From the NCBI RefSeq assembly GCF_006345805.1, contig NC_042998.1:129270001-129334000 (forward strand): a DNA stretch of 64,000 nucleotides, in the 5' to 3' direction. Position 1 is the stretch's first letter, and each line of letters starts with the position of its first letter. Source of the stretch: Octopus sinensis. Its lineage: Eukaryota. The notes beneath the pieces were generated by a model that did not search any database, was not told the origin of the DNA, and saw only the letters and a program-made list of their open reading frames with translations. This document shows positions 412 through 44,959 of the stretch, one piece after another. A program made the position numbers and the translations under genes.

Positions 412-457
<46 letters not shown>

Positions 458-485
458 GAGAGAGAGAGAGAGAGAGTGAGAAGAG

Positions 486-512
<27 letters not shown>
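412..512. repeat. (TA)n/(GA)n microsatellite at the left end of the PLE
   Basis: Direct inspection. Confidence 0.95.
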
Positions 513-518
<6 letters not shown>

Positions 519-611
519 AAAATATTATTCGAGACAAAACCACTATTTTGCAACAAAACAAGGAAAGACTTAATAATACATAAAATTTTAATAAATAGTC
601 AAAAAAAACCG

Positions 612-654
612 CCACTACAATCGTTTCTTGTCTTGATCGACAATCTTCAGGTGG
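612..654 (-). ncRNA. Minimal type I hammerhead ribozyme (3' pLTR copy)
   Basis: Reverse complement reads CCAC-CUGAAGA-UUGUC(GAUCAA)GACAA-GAAAC-GAUU-GUA-GUGG. Confidence 0.85.
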
Positions 655-1099
655 ACTTCCAATCTAAAAAATCAATATTTTAAAATATAAAAATAATAAT
701 TTTAAAATAATTAAAGTATGAATGAAAAAATATAAGTATATAATCCATATATAACCTATCTATAATCCATATATAAACAATATATAAACAATATATAAAC
801 TAAAAAAACCTATCAACAATTAAATATAAAATATAAAATATAAAATATAAAATATAAAATATAAAACAAAACAAAAAAAAAAATAATAATATAATAATAA
901 ACTATATATACACCCATACGCATATACCTAATTATATATAACCATATCTAACTACATACACTAAATCACACACCTATATATATATCCCTATACATACACA
1001 TAAAAATGTCTAGGCAACTATAAATAAATAAAATAGCTAAATACTTCAACACAATACTTATTCATACTCCCACACACACACACATACAACCCACATTCA

Positions 1100-4000
1100 C
1101 GCTCTAGAAAAACGGACATCACTCAAAACTATGAACGGAGAAATGGAATAAATGGAATTAAAAATTATATACACTTTGTAAAACAAACACTACTTAAAAA
1201 TTATGAATGAAACAATGCAATAAAACAACAGACATCGCAAATATACACAAATTACTACAAATTCCTTATCAAACCTACCATGATAACCAAAATTCATAAA
1301 AACATATAATGATAAAATCTCCCTTTACTAAACTCTATAACAAACCTATATAGCAATCCCCCTAACCTAAACATTCACACACAAATACACACACGTAAAC
1401 CACACACACACGACATATACAAATACCCACACCACTTACACATACCAATACATACATATAAACCTCAACATATACTCCAAAAACCCACTCAACCCCACAC
1501 AGACAAATAAACACAAAAATTATGAATGAATGGATTCATTTATAAAACTACCATGATAATCTAAAACTCACAAAACAGAAATGATAAAACCTCCCTTACT
1601 AAACACTAAAACATACTTATATAGCAATTCATTTAACCTATACATTCACACACCAAACCACTCGTAAACCACACACCCATAACAAATACAAACTCCCACC
1701 CCACTCACACACACCCACAAGTACATATAAGCCTCAACATATACACCAAACAAAATTACTTTACCAAGGAACTTAACATATATATAAAAAGTATAACCGC
1801 TCTGGAAACGAACATCTCTAAATTAATGAATGGAGAAATGGAATAAATGGAATTAAAAATAAAATTCACGTGGCAAAACGAACACCACTCAAAAATTATG
1901 AATGAAACAATATAATAAAACAACCAACATCGAAAATAGACAAATTACTACGAATTCCCTAAAAAAAAAAAAAACCATGATAAACCAAAACTCTTAAAAA
2001 ACATATAACGATAAAATCTCCCTTTGCTAAACTCTATAACAAACCTATATAGTAATCCCCCTAACCTAAACATTCACACACAAACACACACGTAAACCAC
2101 ATACCCACGACTTATACACATACCTAAACTAACTTATAAACCTCCATATACACCAAAACCACTCCCTCCCACACAGACAAATTAAATCATAATCCCAAAA
2201 CCTAAATAACAAACCCATATACACATTCACACACAAACACCACACACACGCAAAACACACAAAACACAACATATACATATACTCCCTCACATATACGCAT
2301 ATACATACTCACTAAACTCAATATATACAACAATATTTACACACCCACACTCATACAGATAAATAAATTATACAACTAAAAAACTCGCACACAATCTCAT
2401 ATACATAACACTCCTATGAAAACAACATTAAATACATCGTAATTAACCAGAATATCAAAAATAACAATATGACATAAAGGTAAATAAAATACATACTTAC
2501 AATTCAGTGTCAAATTATGAAGTGAAATTAAATTCTTAGCCGTTAAAAAATCAAACCAAAATTACGTTACCATAGAAATAACTTATGTAAAAAAAGACTA
2601 ACAATCAACTTACAGTAACCCAAACCCATTCTCAATGCCTACCTCACTACTACACTATTCCATTCACAATTCCAAACAACGCTAGTCCACCTCCCGGTTA
2701 TTCACGTGGCAAAACGAACACCACTCAAAAATTATGAATGAAACAATGTAATAAAACAACCAACATCGAAAATAGACAATTACCACGAATTCCCTAAAAA
2801 AACCATGATAAACCAAAACTCCTAAAAACATTATAACGATAAATCTCCCTTTACTAAACTCTATAACAAACCTATATAGCAATCTCCCTAACCTAAACAT
2901 TCACACACAAATACACACTCGTAAACCACAGACCCACTACTTATACACATACCTATACTAACTTATAAACCTCAATATACACCAAAACCACTCCCTCCCA
3001 CACAGACAAATTAACACATACATCAAAACCTAAATAACACAAACCCATATACACATTCACACACAAACACACACACACGCAAAACACACACACACAACAG
3101 ATACATATACTCCATCACATATACGCATATACATACTCACTAAACTCGATATATACAACAATATTTACACACCCACACTCATACAGATAAATAAATTATA
3201 CAACTAAAAAACTCGCACACAATCTCATATACATAAACACACCTATGAAAACAACATTAAATACATCGTAATTAACCAAAATATCAAAAATAACAATATG
3301 ACATAAGGATAAATAAAATACATACTTACAATTCAGTGTCAAATTATGAAGTGAAATTAAATTCTTAGCCGTTAAAAAAATCAAAGCAAAATTACGTTAC
3401 CATAGAAATAACTTATGTAAAAAAAGAATACGCGCCATGGAAAGTAAACGTCATTTAATTATGAATGGAGAAATAGGAAAATGGAACTAAAAACTATATC
3501 CACGTGGCAAACCAACACTACTTAAAAAAAGTTTATTATGAATGGATTCTTTAAAAAACTACCATTAAAAATCATTATATACATCTATGAACTTTAGCTC
3601 ACCTTAGCATCTCTAACAAACAACTTGCAGTAACCCAAACCCATTCTCTATGCCTACTTCACTACTACACTATTCCATTCACAATTCCAAGCAACGCTAG
3701 TCCACCACCCGGTTATTCACGTGGCAAAACTAACACCACTCAAAAATTATGAATGAAACAATGTAATAAAACAACCAACATCGAAAATAGACAAATTACC
3801 ACGAATTCCCTAAAATAACCATGATAAACCAAAACTCATAAAAACATATAACGATAAAATCTCCCTTTGCTAAACTCTATAACAAACCTATATAGTAATC
3901 CCCCTAAACATTCACACACAAATACACACTCGTAAACCACAATCCACGACTTATACACATACCTATCCTAATTTTAAACCTCAATATACACCAAAACCCA

Positions 4001-4730
4001 CTCCCTCCCACACAGACAAATTAACACAAACATCCCAAAACCTAAATAACAAACCCATATACACATTCACACACAAACACACACACACACAAAAAAACAA
4101 CATACACAACAGATACATATACTCCCTCACATATACTCATATATATACTCACTAAACTCGATATATACAACAATATTTACACACCCACACTCATACAGAT
4201 AAATAAAATATACAACTAAAAACTCACACACAATCTCATATACATAAAACTCCTATGAAAACAACATTAAATACATCGTAATTAACCAGAATATCAAAAT
4301 AACAATATGACATAAGGATAAATAAAATACATACTACAAGTCAATTTCAAATAATGAAGTGAAATTAAATTCTTAGCCGTTAAAAAAACCAAACCAAAAT
4401 TACATTACCATAGAAATAACTTATGTAAAAAAAAGAGAGATATACACGCCATAGAAATTAAACGTCATTTAAATTATGAATGGAGAAATAGAATAAATGG
4501 AACTAAAACTATATCCACGTAGCAAACCAACACTACGTAAAAAAATTTTTAATCAATGGATTCTTTAAAAAACTACCATGAAAAACCATTATATACATTT
4601 ATGAGCTTAACTCACCCTATCAGCTCTAACAAACAACCTACAGCAACCCAAACCTATTCCCGATGCCTACCTCACTACCACACTAATCAATTCCCAATTC
4701 CAAGCAACGCTAGTCCACCACCCGGTTACA
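1100..4730. repeat. Complex tandem repeat (units ~0.85-1.0 kb plus partial units) in the PLE 3' region
   Basis: ttcacgtggcaaaac recurs near 1866, 2701 and 3716; gctagtccacc-cccggtta near 2681, 3696 and 4709; + strand is A/C-rich and nearly G-free. Confidence 0.9.
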
Positions 4731-4949
4731 ATTCCCAACTCCACCCATTAATTCACAATTTCAACGACATTCGCCTCCACAACGCTACATATAAGCCTCA
4801 ACATATACACCGGAGATACACTTACACATCCGTGCGGATGGGTGAGAGTATACATTAAGTGTAGTGATGGGGCTCCCATTACTATACACATTTGTACCTA
4901 TGTGGTAGTCTCCATGTGTATATTACGCACGGGTATAAATAACTGCAGG

Positions 4950-5220
4950 GGGTACAGGCGCACGTCGTTTACGTGTACCCCTCACATGTACATATGCATG
5001 CTATTTGGGCTCGATATATGCAACAATGTAATCGCGCCCGCATACATGCATATGGGCGAATTGCACAATCAAAAAACGCACACGTGTGTGTGTGCGTTCC
5101 CTAGTTGTGCAATTCACCCATCTGGGTGTGAGTGGGTGTAATCTTATCACTATGGATGTCAAGCTTAATACGTATTTATATAAGTATGTATAACGGGTTG
5201 TACGTATTAATTGTGTGCAT
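4950..5220 (+). repeat. Imperfect internal hairpin, axis ~5086
   Basis: tgggcgaattgcacaa..aacgcacac (5053-5083) pairs with gtgtgcgtt..ttgtgcaattcaccca (5090-5120); ttgggctcgatat pairs with atgtcaagcttaa further out. Confidence 0.75.
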
Positions 5221-5873
5221 GTGCTTCACGCACTTGCGTCCATATATGGATGAATATATTGGGATTACTATGTGGGTGTAAATTGGGTATGGAGGGGGGA
5301 ATTTTGTCATTGTATGGGTGTGGGTTTCATTTATGATAGTGGTTAGTTGGTGATTTTTAGTATGTTCTATATATTTGGGTTAGTTATGTATTATTCTAGT
5401 GTGTATAATTGAATACATATAATTTGTGTGAATGGGATTACGCCCATTTTTGGGGATGTATGTGTTTATTTATCCATGTGGGGCGGGAGTGGCCGTTAGG
5501 TGTATATGCCGAGGCTCACATGCAATTCCAGGTACATCGAATGAAGTGGGTACCTATATTTGTTATGGGTGTGTGTACTTTATTATAACAGACAAAACCC
5601 AATAAAATCTGTCAATTAAACATACAAATAAAAAACAAAAAACAAAGGATCTTAAACATTCACACATACATACAAAACTCAATAAAAACACCACTAAATA
5701 ACACCCATAAAATATAAATATATCCTCCAAATATATACATTAAAAATGAACTAATTAAAACAAAGAAATATAAATAAAGACTAACTATAATTAAAGCCTA
5801 GACAAATAACCAAAAATATATTATCTAAACTAATTTAAACTAAATTAAAGTAACCTAAAAGGGAACTATTTTG

Positions 5874-8378
5874 CTATTTATCATGAAACTTATTATATAG
5901 GTAAAGTAACTTATGTCTGCATTTTATTTTGCGCTCCTCGCCAGTATTAAGTAAATTATCATACTTATAAAATAAAATTTCTTTAAACTCATTAGAGCAT
6001 AAATAACAACAATTAGCTCCTATAGTATATGATTTAGTTTTACAAATTATTTCCCAAATTAAACTATAATTAATATTTAGTGATTTAAGACTCCAAATGT
6101 ACTTACTAAGTCCGGTTGAGTTGATTAAGTTTTTATTTTTAAAAGAATTCATATGTTGTGCGATTCTTAGTTTTATTTTTGAGGAAGTAGAACCTATATA
6201 AACCGCTTTTTTGTAATTATTATTCTTAAAGTTATTATCATGTAATGTAACTATACATTTATACACTACATCGTTAATATCACAATTATTATTTAATATA
6301 CAATTAGATTTATCTCTACATGTACATTTAATATAAGTCTTATCATTATTAATATTATTATCAAATAATTTCTTTTTATAAAAATTATTCAGTTTATATT
6401 ATATTAAATGAAGAAATAATGTTACCAACATTATTAGTGGTAGAGTAACCAACTCCAAAATTATTAAAAGAGAAAATGTTTCTATATTTACGATTATCTC
6501 TAATAAATAGTTCTATAACATCTAAAATCTCTTTAATAATATTCGTTTTTACTTGATTTCCATAAGGAACTATTAACCAAATTTATTCTTATTAACCTTA
6601 TTATTATTATCATTATTATAAATATATTTATAATTCTTTATTTATTAAAATTATTATCAGAATTATATCTATGTACAGCATTTAAGGAATTATTAATATT
6701 ATTAAATTTATCAATATAATTATTATAATAATTATTAAATTTATTTTTATTTTTATTATTCTTATTGTATTATTATTATATATTTATTATTATTATTATT
6801 ATTCTTATTTATATTTTATCATTTTTATTATTTTTTTAAAAAAATATCTATATTTTACCACTAAACCTAACAAAATTATAATTATTATTAGAAGTATCTC
6901 GAAAATTAACAATTAAATCTTTATCACTAATATTATAAAATTAATATTCCTGTTATAACCTGCCCCTCTAAGGGCCTCATTATAATAATTAGCATGTTTA
7001 TTAAAAATCTCTATATCATAAGAGAGTAATGAAATACGTTTACTTATATTATAATCAACGATTTTTAATAGAAAATGGGTGATTACTATTAACATTTATA
7101 TATCTAAGGTTCTCATTAAGTTTATGATATGGTTGTGTTTTACCTGTAATAAGATTAAAATTAACATCTAAATAATTAACATATAATTCTCCTTATATAT
7201 AGTAATACTTAAACCATATCTTTTAAAGAAACTATATAGTTTTTTCTTATATACTTCTAGATTCCTATTAGTACAATTCTTTGTAACTAGTAGAAGATCG
7301 TCTCTATATAAACCACCCTCTATCTTAAGATTTTCTAATTGGAGTTCAGATAAAAGAAAAATACCTACTAAATCAGTAGCCTGTGCAGAATCTGGTGCTC
7401 CCATAGGTATATCAAAACAATCTCTAGTATCATTCCTAGCCCATAATTTATTTTTATATTTAATTAGCGATTTCCTAGCCATTTTAATTACATTAACTTC
7501 TTCACGTGACATACCCGCTTTATTCATTGCGAAAATAAGCGCTTTATTAAACACAATTTCATTAATAGAAGAATAATAATTATCAATATCTATTTGAATA
7601 AATTTATAACGATTTTTATCTTTAATATTATTAAACCATTTCAATGTATTATTATTACTAAACCATAATTTTTTAAATAATTAAGGTTATTAACTTATCT
7701 ATATATTTATCTAAAATAAATTTACTTAATTTACCTAGATCCGATTTACATGGGCAAATAATCTAACTTTAGGGTCTGAATAAAAATTATCTTTATGGTC
7801 TTTAAGAGTAATTCTGGGGTGCAAAGGTACATAAGGTTCAGTTTTATTATCCAACTCATATTTTAACATTACTACTTTAGAGGCCTTATTAATATTATAA
7901 AGAATATCATCTGGAACAATTTTATATTTTTAATTATTTCTTTCCCTAATAGTTATCATATAATTTAACATCTAATTATATAAAATCCTTGTTTTATCAG
8001 ATTGTACTATAATACCATCCATATTTCTCATATCTTTAATTTTAATTGCTAAATTCCTTAAATATTCATTATTTCTATTTGGGCATTTATGGAATTCAAT
8101 ATTTTTTACCACCTTCCATATACTATCTTCAAGTAATTGTAATTCTTTATTAAATGGAGGTTCCTTTCTAGATTTAAATTTAGAGGTAAAATTATCATTC
8201 CTACTATCAATATCATTAAATAAATAAAAATTATAGTAAAAAGCTTTCCATTTAATTCTAGAAATAAAATCTTTAACATTATAACAAGTTTCAAAATAAA
8301 TTCCTTTCTAGAAGGAATAGGAATATCTTTCAAAGATGAATCCCAAAACAGCGGTTCTATCTTACCTGTAAAATCCAT
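5874..8378 (-). pseudogene. PLE polyprotein (reverse transcriptase + C-terminal GIY-YIG endonuclease), frameshifted in this assembly
   Basis: ORF pieces: SLKDIPIPS (N-term); IQIDIDNYYSSI, FDIPMGAPDSAQATDLVG and GGLYRDD (RT); CTCRDKSNC..VVYKC, VYIGST..R..QH, LSKYIW, CYLC and CRH (GIY-YIG + Zn-finger). Total ~2.5 kb. Confidence 0.88.
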
Positions 8379-8423
8379 AATTTACGAAATTGAGGTATTA
8401 CACTCAATATACAAAATTATCAA

Positions 8424-8756
8424 TATTATATAAATAATAAATATTAGGGAATAAATCCAAATTTACAGGGAAAAAATCAGATTTATGATTAAATCGATTT
8501 TATAGTAAAATATTATAAAATATTATTCGAGACAAAACCACTATTTTGCTAAACAAACAAGGAAAGACTTAATTAATACATAAAATTTTAATAAATAGTC
8601 AAAAAAACCGCCACTACAATCGTTTCTTGTCTTGATCGACAATCTTCAGGTGGACTTCCAATCTAAAAAATCAATATTTTAAAATATAAAAATAATAATT
8701 TTAAAATAATTAAAGTATGAATGAAAAAATATAAGTATATAATCCATATATAACCT
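8424..8756 (-). repeat. 5' pLTR copy (direct repeat of the element 3' end) upstream of the ORF start
   Basis: ~8511-8756 matches 511-757; 8424-8756 matches the reverse complement of ~12897-13225. Confidence 0.9.
8611..8653 (-). ncRNA. Minimal hammerhead ribozyme (5' pLTR copy, ~230 nt upstream of the ATG)
   Basis: Identical to the 612-654 motif. Confidence 0.85.
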
Positions 8757-11700
8757 CGTGCGTAATATACACATGGAGACTACCACATAGGTACAAATGT
8801 GTATAGTAATGGGAGCCCCATCACTACACTTAATGTATACTCTCACCCATCCGCACGGATGTGTAAGTGTATCTCCGGTGTATATGTTGAGGCTTATATG
8901 TAGCGTTGTGGAGGCGAATGTCGTTGAAATTGTGAATTAATGGGTGGAGTTGGGAATTGTAACCGGGTGGTGGACTAGCGTTGCTTGGAATTGGGAATTG
9001 ATTAGTGTGGTAGTGAGGTAGGCATCGGGAATAGGTTTGGGTTGCTGTAGGTTGTTTGTTAGAGCTGATAGGGTGAGTTAAGCTCATAAATGTATATAAT
9101 GGTTTTTCATGGTAGTTTTTTAAAGAATCCATTGATTAAAAATTTTTTTACGTAGTGTTGGTTTGCTACGTGGATATAGTTTTAGTTCCATTTATTCTAT
9201 TTCTCCATTCATAATTTAAATGACGTTTAATTTCTATGGCGTGTATTCTCTCTTTTTTTTACATAAGTTATTTCTATGGTAATGTAATTTTGGTTTGGTT
9301 TTTTTAACGGCTAAGAATTTAATTTCACTTCATTATTTGAAATTGACTTGTAGTATGTATTTTATTTATCCTTATGTCATATTGTTATTTTGATATTCTG
9401 GTTAATTACGATGTATTTAATGTTGTTTTCATAGGAGTTTTATGTATATGAGATTGTGTGTGAGTTTTTAGTTGTATATTTTATTTATCTGTATGAGTGT
9501 GGGTGTGTAAATATTGTTGTATATTCGAGTTTAGTGAGTATATATATGAGTATATGTGAGGGAGTATATGTATCTGTTGTGTATGGGTGTTTTTTGTGTG
9601 TGTTGTGGTTTGTGTGTGAATGTGTATATGGGTTTGTTATTTAGGTTTTGGGATGTTTGTGTTAATTTGTCTGTGTGGGAGGGAGTGGGTTTTGGTGTAT
9701 ATTGAGGTTATAAATTAGGATAGGTATGTGATAAGTCGTGGATTGTGGTTACGAGTGTGTATTTGTGTGTGAATGTTTAGGGGGATTATATATAGGTTTG
9801 TTATAGAGTTTAGCAAAGGGAGATTTATCGTTATATGTTTTTATGAGTTTTGGTTTATCATGGTTATTTTAGGGAATTCGTGGTAATTTGTCTATTTTCG
9901 ATGTTGGTTGTTTTATTACATTGTTTCATTCATAATTTTTGAGTGGTGTGTTAGTTTTGCCACGTGAATAACGGGTGGTGGACTAGCGTTGCTTGGAATT
10001 GTGAATGGAATAGTGTAGTAGTGAAGTAGGCATAGAGAATGGGTTTGGGTTACTGCAAGTTGTTTGTTAGAGATGCTAAGGTGAGCTAAAGTTCATAGAT
10101 GTATATAATGATTTTTAATGGTAGTTTTTTAAAGAATCCATTCATAATAAAAGTTTTTTTAAGTAGTGTTGGTTGCCACGTGGATATAGTTTTTAGTTCC
10201 ATTTTCCTATTTCTCCATTCATAATTTAAATGACGTTTACTTTCCATGGCGCGTATTTTTTTTACATAAGTTATTTCTATGGTAACGTAATTTTGCTTTG
10301 ATTTTTTAACGGCTAAGAATTTAATTTCACTTCATAATTTGACACTGAATTGTAAGTATGTATTTTATTTATCCTTATGTCATATTGTTATTTTTGATAT
10401 TTTGGTTATTACGATGTATTTAATGTTGTTTTCATAGGTGTGTTTATGTATATGAGATTGTGTGCGAGTTTTTAGTTGTATAATTTATTTATCTGTATGA
10501 GTGTGGGTGTGTAAAATTGTTGTATATATCGAGTTTAGTGAGTATGTATATGCGTATATGTGATGGAGTATATGTATCTGTGTGTGTGTGTGTTTTGCGT
10601 GTGTGTGTGTTTGTGTGTGAATGTGTATATGGGTTTGTTATTTAGGTTTTGGGATGTATGTGTTAATTTGTCTGTGTGGGAGGGAGTGGGTTTTGGTGTA
10701 TATTGAGGTTTATAAGTTAGTATAGGTATGTGTATAAGTAGTGGGTCTGTGGTTTACGAGTGTGTATTTGTGTGTGAATGTTTAGGTTAGGGAGATTGCT
10801 ATATAGGTTTGTTATAGAGTTTAGTAAAGGGAGATTTATCGTTATATGTTTTTAGGAGTTTGGTTTATCATGGTTTTTTTAGGGAATTCGTGGTAATTTG
10901 TATTTTCGATGTTGGTTGTTTTATTACATTGTTTCATCATTCATAATTTTTGAGTGGTGTTCGTTTTGCCACGTGAATAACCGGGAGGTGGACTAGCGTT
11001 GTTTGGAATTGTGAATGGAATAGTGTAGTAGTGAGGTAGGCATTGAGAATGGGTTTGGGTTACTGTAAGTTGATTGTTAGTCTTTTTTACATAAGTTATT
11101 TCTATGGTAACGTAATTTTGGTTTGATTTTTTAACGGCTAAGAATTTAATTTCACTTCATAATTTGACACTGAATTGTAAGTATGTATTTTATTTACCTT
11201 TATGTCATATTGTTATTTTTGATATTCTGGTTAATTACGATGTATTTAATGTTGTTTTCATAGGAGTGTTTATGTATAGAGATTGTGTGCGAGTTTTTAG
11301 TTGTATAATTTATTTATCTGTATGAGTGGGGGTGTGTAAATATTGTTGTATATATTGAGTTTAGTGAGTATGTATATGCGTATATGTGAGGGAGTATATG
11401 TATATGTTGTGTTTGTGTGTTTTGCGTGTGTGTGTGTTTGTGTGTGAATGTGTATATGGGTTTGTTATTAGGTTTTGGGATGTATGAGTTAATTTGTCTG
11501 TGTGGGAGGGAGTGGTTTTTGGTGTATATGGAGGTTTATAAGTTAGTTTAGGTATGTGTATAAGTCGTGGGTATGTGGTTTGTGTGTGTTTGTGGGTGAA
11601 TGTTTAGGTTAGGGGGATTACTATATAGGTTTGTTATAGAGTTTAGCAAAGGGAGATTTATCGTTATATGTTTTTTAAGAGTTTTGGTTTATCATGGTTT

Positions 11701-13225
11701 TTTTTTTTTTTAGGGAATTCGTAGTAATTTGTCTATTTTCGATGTTGGTTGTTTTATTATATTGTTTCATTCATAATTTTTGAGTGGTGTTCGTTTTGCC
11801 ACGTGATTTTATTTTTAATTCCATTTATTCCATTTCTCCATTCATTAATTTAGAGATGTTCGTTTCCAGAGCGGTTATACTTTTTATATATATGTTAAGT
11901 TCCTTGGTAAAGTATTTTGTTTGGTGTATATGTGAGGCTTATATGTACTTGTGGGTGTGTGTGAGTGGGGTGGGAGTTTGTATTTGTTATGGGTGTGTGG
12001 TTTACGAGTGGTTTGGTGTGTGAATGTATAGGTTAAATGAATTGCTATATAAGTATGTTTTAGTGTTTAGTAAAGGGAGGTTTTATCATTTCTGTTTTGT
12101 GAGTTTTAGATTATCATGGTAGTTTTATAAATGAATCCATTCATAATTTTTGTGTTTATTTGTCTGTGTGGGGTTGTGGGGTTTTTGGAGTATATGTTGA
12201 GGTTTATATGTATGTATTGGTATGTGTAAGTGGTGTGGGTATTTGTATATGTCGTGGGTGTGTGGTTTACGTGTGTGTATTTGTGTGTGAATGTTTAGGT
12301 TAGGGGGATTGATATAGTTTTGTTATAGAGTTTAGTAAAGGGAGATTTTATCATTATATGTTTTTATGAATTTTGGTTATCATGGTAGGTTTGATAAGGA
12401 ATTTGTAGTAATTTGTGTATATTTGCGATGTCTGTTGTTTTATTGCATTGTTTCATTCATAATTTTTAAGTAGTGTTTGTTTTACAAAGTGTATATAATT
12501 TTTAATTCCATTTATTCCATTTCTCCGTTCATAGTTTTGAGTGATGTCCGTTTTTCTAGAGCGTGAATGTGGGTTGTATGTGTGTGTGTGTGGGAGTATG
12601 AATAAGTATTGTGTTGAAGTATTTAGCTATTTTATTTATTTATAGTTGCCTAGACATTTTTATGTGTATGTATAGGGATATATATATAGGTGTGTGATTT
12701 AGTGTATGTAGTTAGATATGGTTATATATAATTAGGTATATGCGTATGGGTGTATATATAGTTTATTATTATATTATTATTTTTTTTTTGTTTTGTTTTA
12801 TATTTTATATTTTATATTTTATATTTTATATTTAATTGTTGATAGGTTTTTTTAGTTTATATATTGTTTATATATTGTTTATATATGGATTATAGATAGG
12901 TTTATATGGATTATATACTTATATTTTTTCATTCATACTTTAATTATTTTAAAATTATTATTTTTTATTTTTAAAATATTGATTTTTTAGATTGGAAGTC
13001 CACCTGAAGATTGTCGATCAAGACAAGAAACGATTGTAGTGGCGGTTTTTTTTTGACTATTTATTAAAATTTTATGTATTAATTAAGTCTTTCCTTGTTT
13101 GTTTTGCAAAATAGTGGTTTTGTCTCGAATAATATTATAATATTTTACTATAAAATCGATTTAATCATAAATCTGATTTTTCCCTGTAAATTTGGATTTA
13201 TTCCCTAATATTATTATTATTATAA
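8757..13225 (+). repeat. Inverted arm of the PLE (reverse complement of 4931->511 plus ~85 nt extension)
   Basis: cgtgcgtaatatacacatgg at 8757 = reverse complement of 4912-4931; the same 100-aa ORF appears at 4556-4858(+) and 8830-9132(-). Confidence 0.95.
13000..13042 (+). ncRNA. Minimal hammerhead ribozyme (inverted arm), predicted cleavage after GUA at 13038
   Basis: CCAC CTGAAGA TTGTC GATCAA GACAA GAAAC GATT GTA GTGG. Confidence 0.85.
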
Positions 13226-13233
13226 TATATATA

Positions 13234-13277
<44 letters not shown>

Positions 13278-44377: not shown

Positions 44378-44959
44378 CTTTTCTACTCTAGGCAGAAGGC
44401 TCGAAATTTTTGGGAAGGGGGCCAGTCGATTAGATCGACCCCAGCATGCAAATGGTACTTAATTCATCGATCCCGAAAGGATTAAAGGCAAAATCGACCT
44501 CGGCGGAATTTGAACTCTGAACGTAAAGACACACAAAATATCTATTTCTTTACTACCCACAAGGGGCTAAACACAGAGAAGACAAACAAGGACAGACAAA
44601 ACGGATTAAGTCGATTATATCGATCCCAGTGCGTAACTGGTCCTTAATTTATCGACCCCGAAAGGAAGAACGGCAAAGTCGACCTCGGCGGAATTTGAAC
44701 TCAGAACGTAGCGACAGACGAAATATCTATTTCTTTATTTACCCTCAAGGGGCTAAACATAGAGCGGACAAACAAGGACATACATAGGTATTAAGTCTTT
44801 TACATCGACGCCAGTGCGTAGCTGGTACTTAATTTATAGACCCCGAAAGGATGAAAGGCAAAGTCGACCTCAGCGGAATTTGAACTCAGAACGTAACGGC
44901 AGACGAAATACGACCACGCATTTCGCCCGGCATGCTAACGTTTCTGCCAGCTCACCGCT
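44378..44959 (-). mobile_element. tRNA-derived SINE, trimeric
   Basis: Three copies of cccgaaagga..aaggcaaa.tcgacctcggcggaatttgaactc at ~185-bp spacing; single head at 44920-44959. Confidence 0.9.

What the first reader, a model, noticed from the sequence alone, without database searches (positions are those of the whole stretch)
4830..5590. Hairpin with clustered A>G differences on both arms: possible genomic fossil of ADAR hyper-editing
Seen: 4970-5083 is a copy of the tandem unit with runs of A>G (tacatatac>tacgtgtac, ctaaactcg>ttgggctcg, cacacccaca>cgcgcccgca, ataaataaattat>atgggcgaattgc). Region 5090-5360 is an inverted copy that also has A>G on the + strand (gggattactatataggt>gggattactatgtgggt), giving many G.U pairs. 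Known: ADAR edits both arms of a hairpin on the same strand, and coleoids edit extensively. Inference: an edited RNA was reverse-transcribed and fixed in this retroelement lineage. The signal is on the strand antisense to the ORF, and some Gs are shared by both arms. The alternative is G>A/C>T decay (deaminase or AT drift) in the tandem units.
Basis: partly seen in the sequence, partly recalled or inferred. Interest (0 to 1): 0.75.

Follow-up and report, generated by a model that had tools for sequence, protein, structure and literature searches.

The report
Repeated ADAR edits inherited by retrotransposon
Twice in this jumping gene's history a piece of its tail flipped and formed a hairpin, and each time up to half of the paired A letters turned to G on the RNA strand only, likely because the RNA-editing enzyme ADAR edited the RNA and the element then likely copied the edits into inherited DNA, round after round.

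Summary
The region is the 3' tail of a Hydra-like Penelope retroelement (413-13262, ORF on minus) with at least 64 copies of this stem in G000.

Older subfamilies carry only direct units, with A. Inversion 1 made a ~250-bp fold-back (4830-5368). In its pre-inversion-2 form one arm has 66 of 114 A>G and the other 33 of 66, both on the then sense strand, with no G>A.

Inversion 2 flipped 4585-5576, which is why the signal now looks antisense. A new sense-strand burst followed: 0-1 A>G in 3 unflipped copies, 44-73 in early flipped copies, 83 in the window.

Edits avoid a 5' G (4 of 45 versus 169 of 417, p=1.4e-5) and track available partners. They are absent from synonymous ORF sites (1 of 212). 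The 'shared Gs' arose later.

ADAR action is inferred; no RNA-level test was possible. This scan noted similar ADAR-Penelope fossils in other genomes.

The parts
413..13262 (-). Whole Penelope-like element insertion between (TA)n tracts: ~8-kb monomer plus a 4.5-kb inverted copy
   Evidence: self-BLAST; TA arrays
5874..8378 (-). RT + C-terminal GIY-YIG-type ORF, broken by frameshifts and stops in this copy
   Evidence: six-frame translation; sister-copy frame P0001; Atlas hits with RVT_1/HTH_animal families; no Pfam hit
8407..8756 (-). 5' pseudo-LTR (repeat of the element's 3' end, period 7999)
602..660 (-). Minimal hammerhead-like core motif (also 8601-8660); recognised by eye from recalled consensus, not confirmed
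   Evidence: regex hits; no Rfam hit; MFE fold is not a hammerhead
8757..13262 (+). Inverted copy of 4931->413; differs from arm 1 by 22 transversions and no transition, so itself unedited
1100..4580 (.). Direct tandem units (~830-1010 bp), A/C-rich on +, G/U-rich in the RNA; pairing partners after inversion 2 (inferred)
4585..5576 (.). Block flipped by inversion 2 relative to sister copies L111, L132, L133
4830..5086 (+). Left arm (inverted duplicate made by inversion 1); 50 of 66 early A>G sites still read G
5087..5368 (+). Right arm (original direct module); 22 of 33 early A>G sites still G on +, plus 17 later T>C on + at 5099-5241
4586..4802 (-). Post-inversion-2 A>G cluster on the present sense strand (53 sites)
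5484..5554 (-). Second post-inversion-2 A>G cluster (13 sites)
3619..3716 (-). Copy of the edited fragment inside a tandem unit (25 of 48 A>G)
2607..2701 (-). Further copy of the edited fragment inside a tandem unit (26 of 48 A>G)

Best explanation
This hairpin is the 3' tail of a Penelope-like retrotransposon that gained clustered A>G changes on its RNA strand after each of two internal inversions, likely because ADAR hyper-edited the folded RNA and the element's reverse transcriptase likely wrote the inosines into germ-line DNA as G. Shown: order of events, strand, polarity, confinement to paired segments, 5' G avoidance, graded edit sets across copies. Inferred steps: (1) a fold-back at a (CA)n tract duplicated one ~250-bp unit in inverted orientation, probably by the same template switch that makes inverted pseudo-LTRs; (2) ADAR edited ~50-58% of A on both arms; (3) edited RNAs stayed retrotransposition-competent because the ORF was untouched; (4) a ~1-kb block was flipped, exposing A-rich sequence that pairs with neighbouring units; (5) ADAR edited again over several retrotransposition rounds until pairing weakened; (6) a slower strand-biased C>U drift now erodes the marks. 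The edits are most likely a by-product of host dsRNA handling, tolerated in a non-coding tail, not an adaptation.
For: Polarity: L117 module confirmed by at least 2 of L118, L119, L112, L113 at 281 of 284 sites. L111 inverted arm A>G 66 of 114, G>A 0, T>C 0; direct arm T>C on + (= A>G on RNA) 33 of 66, A>G 1. ORF tree is a ladder with hairpin-less subfamilies branching first. Inversion 2: at 817 sites where L111 = L120, L129 has A>G 69, C>T 5, G>A 3, T>C 0; window 83, 52, 2, 1. Unflipped L131-L133 have 0, 0, 1; flipped L136 44, L135 49, L141 58, L140 62, L139 70, L142 73, with overlapping but non-identical sets. Partner units also show A>G on sense (14 of 153 versus G>A 1, T>C 2). Edits follow partner availability: rho 0.72, p=5e-4 over 19 windows; 63 of 193 versus 7 of 195. 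5' G 4 of 45 versus 169 of 417, p=1.4e-5, matching the upstream-G depletion reported across metazoans (PMC5625713 passages). Controls: synonymous ORF A>G 1 of 212; strict branch tests 0 of 687 and 0 of 697; unpaired spacer and 3' end 0-2 A>G per copy. L111 sense hairpin folds with 91 G.U pairs. A_deamin-family genes are present in G000 (17 matches; ADAR versus ADAT/ADAD not separated).
Against: No direct RNA evidence; the enzyme is inferred from its signature. All 4 exceptions to 5' G avoidance fall in one arm, where 4 of 9 5'-G sites changed (p=0.72). The window's own left arm alone is not significant (0 of 4, p=0.12). No 3'-neighbour preference was seen. The 0.55 partner cut-off was chosen after seeing the data and adjacent windows are not independent. 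Preference for A opposite C in the right arm is weak (15 of 62 versus 4 of 42, p=0.07). Tree support is moderate at some nodes (0.82, 0.90), rests on the ORF only, and L132-L142 were not placed in it. Left-arm counts in the window depend on alignment scoring (51, 42).
Confidence: 0.87

Rival explanations
1. G is ancestral and the tandem units decayed by G>A on + (C>U on RNA, CpG or APOBEC type), while pairing preserved G in the hairpin.
For: Strand-biased G>A on + is real in the young family: shared non-CpG G>A 20 of 187 versus C>T 2 of 116, p=0.0026; the window copy has 10 G>A and 1 A>G against the column majority. Synonymous ORF C>T 4-7 of 47 versus G>A 0 of 48.
Against: Five earlier-branching groups lack the hairpin and carry A. 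After inversion 2, A>G rises from 0-1 to 44-73 while C>T is still 4-12. The decay removes edited and original Gs alike (14 of 55, 8 of 30, 13 of 64).
Confidence: 0.03
2. Mismatch repair, gene conversion or quasi-palindrome template switching between arms of a fold-back cDNA produced the pattern.
For: One right-arm patch became exactly complementary to the left arm, and later edits lean towards A opposite C. Repair of G.T in a + strand hairpin would give T>C and G>A on +, the two types seen after inversion 2.
Against: Such processes remove mismatches. Here near-perfect A-U duplexes were turned into 91 G.U pairs, and G runs appear opposite unchanged U. It does not explain 5' G avoidance. It may account for a few of the shared Gs.
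Confidence: 0.04
3. A biased reverse transcriptase or another adenosine deaminase (on RNA:DNA hybrid or ssDNA) caused the A>G changes.
For: Strand-specific and lineage-level, as any replication-cycle process would be. ADARs can act on hybrids in model substrates (PMC12925331 passage). An RT could in principle err more in hairpins.
Against: Changes are confined to segments with an intramolecular partner and hit both partners on the RNA strand; ORF synonymous sites 1 of 212; densities near 50% in one step.
Confidence: 0.06

Closest known systems
ADAR-type A-to-G hypermutation of avian retroviruses (Rous-associated virus U3; avian leukosis virus inverted repeat), as summarised in PMC12925331 (passages read; the primary paper PMC189466 was not held)
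   Same: Nearly 50% of A changed to G in an inverted repeat of a reverse-transcribed RNA and recorded in DNA.
   Different: There: infectious retroviruses, single clones. Here: a germ-line non-viral retroelement lineage in which edited copies kept spreading and were re-edited after a second inversion.
APOBEC DNA editing of LTR retrotransposons fixed in vertebrate genomes (PMC4866542, passages read)
   Same: Host deaminase leaves clustered, strand-biased, heritable hypermutation in retroelement copies.
   Different: That is G>A on the sense strand from C>U on cDNA, in LTR elements, and was depleted in 19 invertebrate genomes. Here A>G on the RNA strand, restricted to dsRNA, with 5' G avoidance.
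Hydra clade of Penelope-like elements (PMC8557442, section 11 and passages read)
   Same: RWK-type, DKT, CxCX5C, CxxC motifs, C-terminal endonuclease, (TA)n target, partial tandem and inverted pseudo-LTR structure.
   Different: Monomer ~8 kb with a ~5-kb modular tail, against generally <3 kb; no editing scars mentioned in the passages read; phylogenetic placement untested.
Somatic hyper-editing of repeats in RNA (PMC5625713, passages read)
   Same: Clusters in dsRNA, upstream G depleted.
   Different: Seen in RNA reads, not inherited; the invertebrate downstream-A preference is not evident here.

Membership tests
ADAR hyper-editing scar | A ancestral, G derived | tested here: met
ADAR hyper-editing scar | Both arms changed on the same, transcribed strand | tested here: met
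   66 of 114 and 33 of 66; partner units 14 of 153; strand taken from ORF orientation
ADAR hyper-editing scar | Confined to dsRNA | tested here: met
ADAR hyper-editing scar | 5' G depleted | tested here: met
   pooled p=1.4e-5; not met in one of four arm sets (4 of 9)
ADAR hyper-editing scar | 3' neighbour preference (G, or A in invertebrates) | tested here: inconclusive
   few 3' G sites
ADAR hyper-editing scar | Inosine in element RNA, ADAR-dependent | not testable with these tools
   only contigs of guessed RNA runs available
APOBEC DNA editing of retroelements | Clustered G>A on the sense strand | tested here: not met
   sense G>A 2-5 in intact copies
Hydra-clade PLE | RWK, DKT, CxCX5C linker, CxxC/CxH around conserved E/N, C-terminal EN without CCHH | tested here: met
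   read by eye in P0001 and window frames against the description; CxH intact in the window frame only
Hydra-clade PLE | Insertion in (TA)n; tandem/inverted pseudo-LTRs | tested here: met
Hydra-clade PLE | Canonical hammerhead ribozyme | tested here: inconclusive
   core motif by regex; no Rfam hit; MFE not hammerhead
Hydra-clade PLE | Generally short (<3 kb) | tested here: not met
   monomer 7999 bp; a tendency, not a strict criterion
Hydra-clade PLE | RT phylogeny places it in the clade | not tested
   no reference set obtained; homolog search gave no hit

The most novel reading that the evidence does not exclude
ADAR is a recurrent germ-line mutagen of living Penelope lineages: every internal inversion is hyper-edited over successive retrotransposition cycles, the edited RNA founds the next master lineage, and edited pieces are recycled into the tandem tail, so RNA editing (with a second, unidentified sense-strand C>U process) drives the strand skew and roughly tenfold faster evolution of the tail. 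The genome thus holds a dated, multi-round record of germ-line ADAR activity and site preference.
Probability: 0.6. Interest if true: 0.82.

Novelty: new variant of a known kind. Interest (0 to 1): 0.72.

Why it matters
RNA editing is usually treated as non-heritable. Here a time series inside one genome shows ADAR-type edits entering the germ line repeatedly through a retroelement that stayed active. The flipped block differs by 21.6% from its sister while the ORF differs by 1.6%. This gives evidence of ADAR access to retroelement RNA in the germ line, shows that the modular tail travels in the RNA intermediate, offers a strand-resolved marker for the poorly understood Penelope transposition cycle, and warns that divergence-based dating of such repeats can be inflated. 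Eight literature searches on this point (listings only, incomplete library) showed no paper on heritable ADAR edits in Penelope-like elements.

Tried and rejected
My early reading was that G was ancestral and units had decayed, because the right arm is mixed against the window's units and young copies lose G. Sister subfamilies overturned it.

Distant families (L031-L049, 63-90% aa) have non-homologous tails and could only root the tree. An apparent different hairpin in L050 was a filtering artefact of my BLAST summary; the projection dropped hairpin hits for the same reason and was not used for counts.

Sequencing runs: no RNA holder listed. Contigs of two guessed-RNA and two other runs gave A>G places 28, 46, 28, 32, reflecting paralogue differences from the window copy, so no test of editing.

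Homolog search: none of 504 candidates. Pfam: no relevant family. Rfam: 6 weak chance matches.

No copy-private hyper-edited cluster among 30 young copies. The window's 4.4-kb inverted arms show no transitions.

Rows set aside: (67 rows, some loci fetched twice) L008, L011, L013 are truncated and misaligned, 9 of 26 loci lacked the orientation marker and were not used for the series.

Full report
Setting. Window 413-13262 is one Penelope-like insertion between (TA)n tracts. The ORF lies on the minus strand (about 8378 to 5874) and is broken in this copy. A sister frame shows the RWK-type, DKT, CxCX5C and CxxC motifs described for the Hydra clade (PMC8557442 section 11); Atlas neighbours carry RVT_1 or HTH_animal in part of their members; Pfam found nothing relevant. 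8407-8756 repeats the 3' end, and 8757-13262 is an inverted copy of 4931-413, the usual Penelope arrangement. The RNA is therefore taken to be the minus strand. The host is a 2.72-Gb genome with A_deamin-family genes; I did not determine the species.

Observation. The arms are true homologues of the tandem units and the left arm shows A>G 21-29 with G>A 0. The feature is shared by the family. Against the window's own units the right arm is mixed, and 30 young copies are currently losing G on +.

Outgroups. An ORF tree of 54 sequences rooted on L041 gives a ladder: L116; L112/L113; L114/L115/L122; L118/L119; L117; L120; L111; L129; L065; then the window's clade. L112-L119 have no inverted module in the tail; L111 carries a fold-back; L129 and later copies have L111 5044-6037 flipped. 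Window versus L111 in that block: 804 of 1025 identical, C/T 100 versus T/C 3, A/G 67 versus G/A 2; in the ORF 2454 of 2493 identical.

Both arms descend from one ancestral unit (281 confident sites). In L111 the inverted arm has A>G 66 of 114 with G>A 0 and T>C 0. The direct arm has T>C on + at 33 of 66 with A>G 1. Both are A>G on the RNA strand of that time, which is today's + strand. That RNA folds with 91 G.U pairs. In the window 50 of 66 and 22 of 33 of these Gs survive; 41 of 42 left-arm and 22 of 23 right-arm A>G were already in L111. L120 shares 30 of 33 direct-arm edits and 33 of its 41 inverted-arm edits. The turn lies in a (CA)n tract at 5086/5087; fold-back by template switching is my inference.

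Inversion 2. At 817 sites where L111 equals L120, sense-strand A>G is 0, 0, 1 in three unflipped copies; 44, 49, 58, 62, 69, 70, 73 in early flipped copies; 83 in the window. Sets overlap but differ (for example 40 and 44 with 37 shared; 60 with 33-44 shared), which points to several rounds; some overlap may be convergence at favoured sites. Edits sit where the flipped sequence has a partner among the remaining direct units (rho 0.72; 63 of 193 versus 7 of 195 with a cut-off chosen afterwards), and the partner units were hit too (14 of 153). The Gs shared by both arms belong to this phase: 0 of 19 in L111. Edited fragments were later duplicated into the tandem units.

Signature and controls. 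5' G sites: 0 of 5, 4 of 9, 0 of 10, 0 of 21 in the four arm sets; pooled 4 of 45 versus 169 of 417, p=1.4e-5. Upstream-G depletion is the shared ADAR motif across metazoans (PMC5625713 passages). No 3' preference was found. Synonymous ORF A>G is 1 of 212 over the same interval; unpaired spacer and 3' end show 0-2 per copy.

Second process. Sense C>T climbs along the ladder (5, 22, 28, 35, 45, 52), is strand-biased only among shared variants, avoids a following C (2 of 65) and is also seen at synonymous ORF sites (4-7 of 47 versus G>A 0 of 48). Its cause is unexplained: RNA deamination, transcription error or second-strand misincorporation are candidates.

Mechanism. Inversion creates dsRNA in the tail; ADAR likely deaminates about half of the paired A; reverse transcriptase likely reads I as G; the copy integrates and founds the next lineage because the ORF is spared. 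Strand, order, confinement and context are shown; the enzyme and the RNA step are inferred. The RNA check was uninformative.

Known parallels. Avian retroviral A>G hypermutation in an inverted repeat (review passage) and APOBEC scars in vertebrate LTR elements. Eight searches (listings only) showed no report for Penelope-like elements; supplements were not consulted. Unchecked notes of this scan describe similar fossils in other genomes; I had written my reading before seeing them and do not count them as support. What this locus adds is the two-inversion natural experiment with unedited pre-inversion copies and a graded series.

Verdict: new variant of a known kind; confidence 0.87; interest 0.72.

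Noticed in passing
window 4585-5576 and ORF: Lineage-level C>T on the RNA strand (G>A on +) that avoids a following C (2 of 65), rises steadily along the ladder and also affects synonymous ORF sites; cause unknown.
   Followed up: partly
window 8756/8757: The inverted pseudo-LTR switch point (4931) falls inside the left hairpin arm with almost no microhomology; L101 and L107 switch near 5016 and 4857. The sample is biased towards this region.
   Followed up: no
window 521-4931 versus 8757-13160: The two long arms differ by 22 transversions (mostly A/C) and no transition, suggesting the inverted copy forms at the DNA stage and that the differences may be sequencing errors.
   Followed up: partly
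window 4585-5576: Sense A>T also accumulates in the flipped block (about 12 versus T>A 1); possibly inosine misread by RT, untested.
   Followed up: no
window ~6580-6840: Asn-rich (AAT)n expansion inside the RT-endonuclease linker, kept in frame in L050.
   Followed up: no
L042/L043/L045, L040, L038/L039: Sister families with 73-84% ORF identity have tails not alignable to the window's, so tails turn over quickly.
   Followed up: partly
G000:C8:53469137-53493021: At least five stem copies in alternating orientation within 24 kb, a large tandem/inverted array.
   Followed up: no
window 44424-44910: 185-bp tandem of an unrelated common repeat.
   Followed up: no
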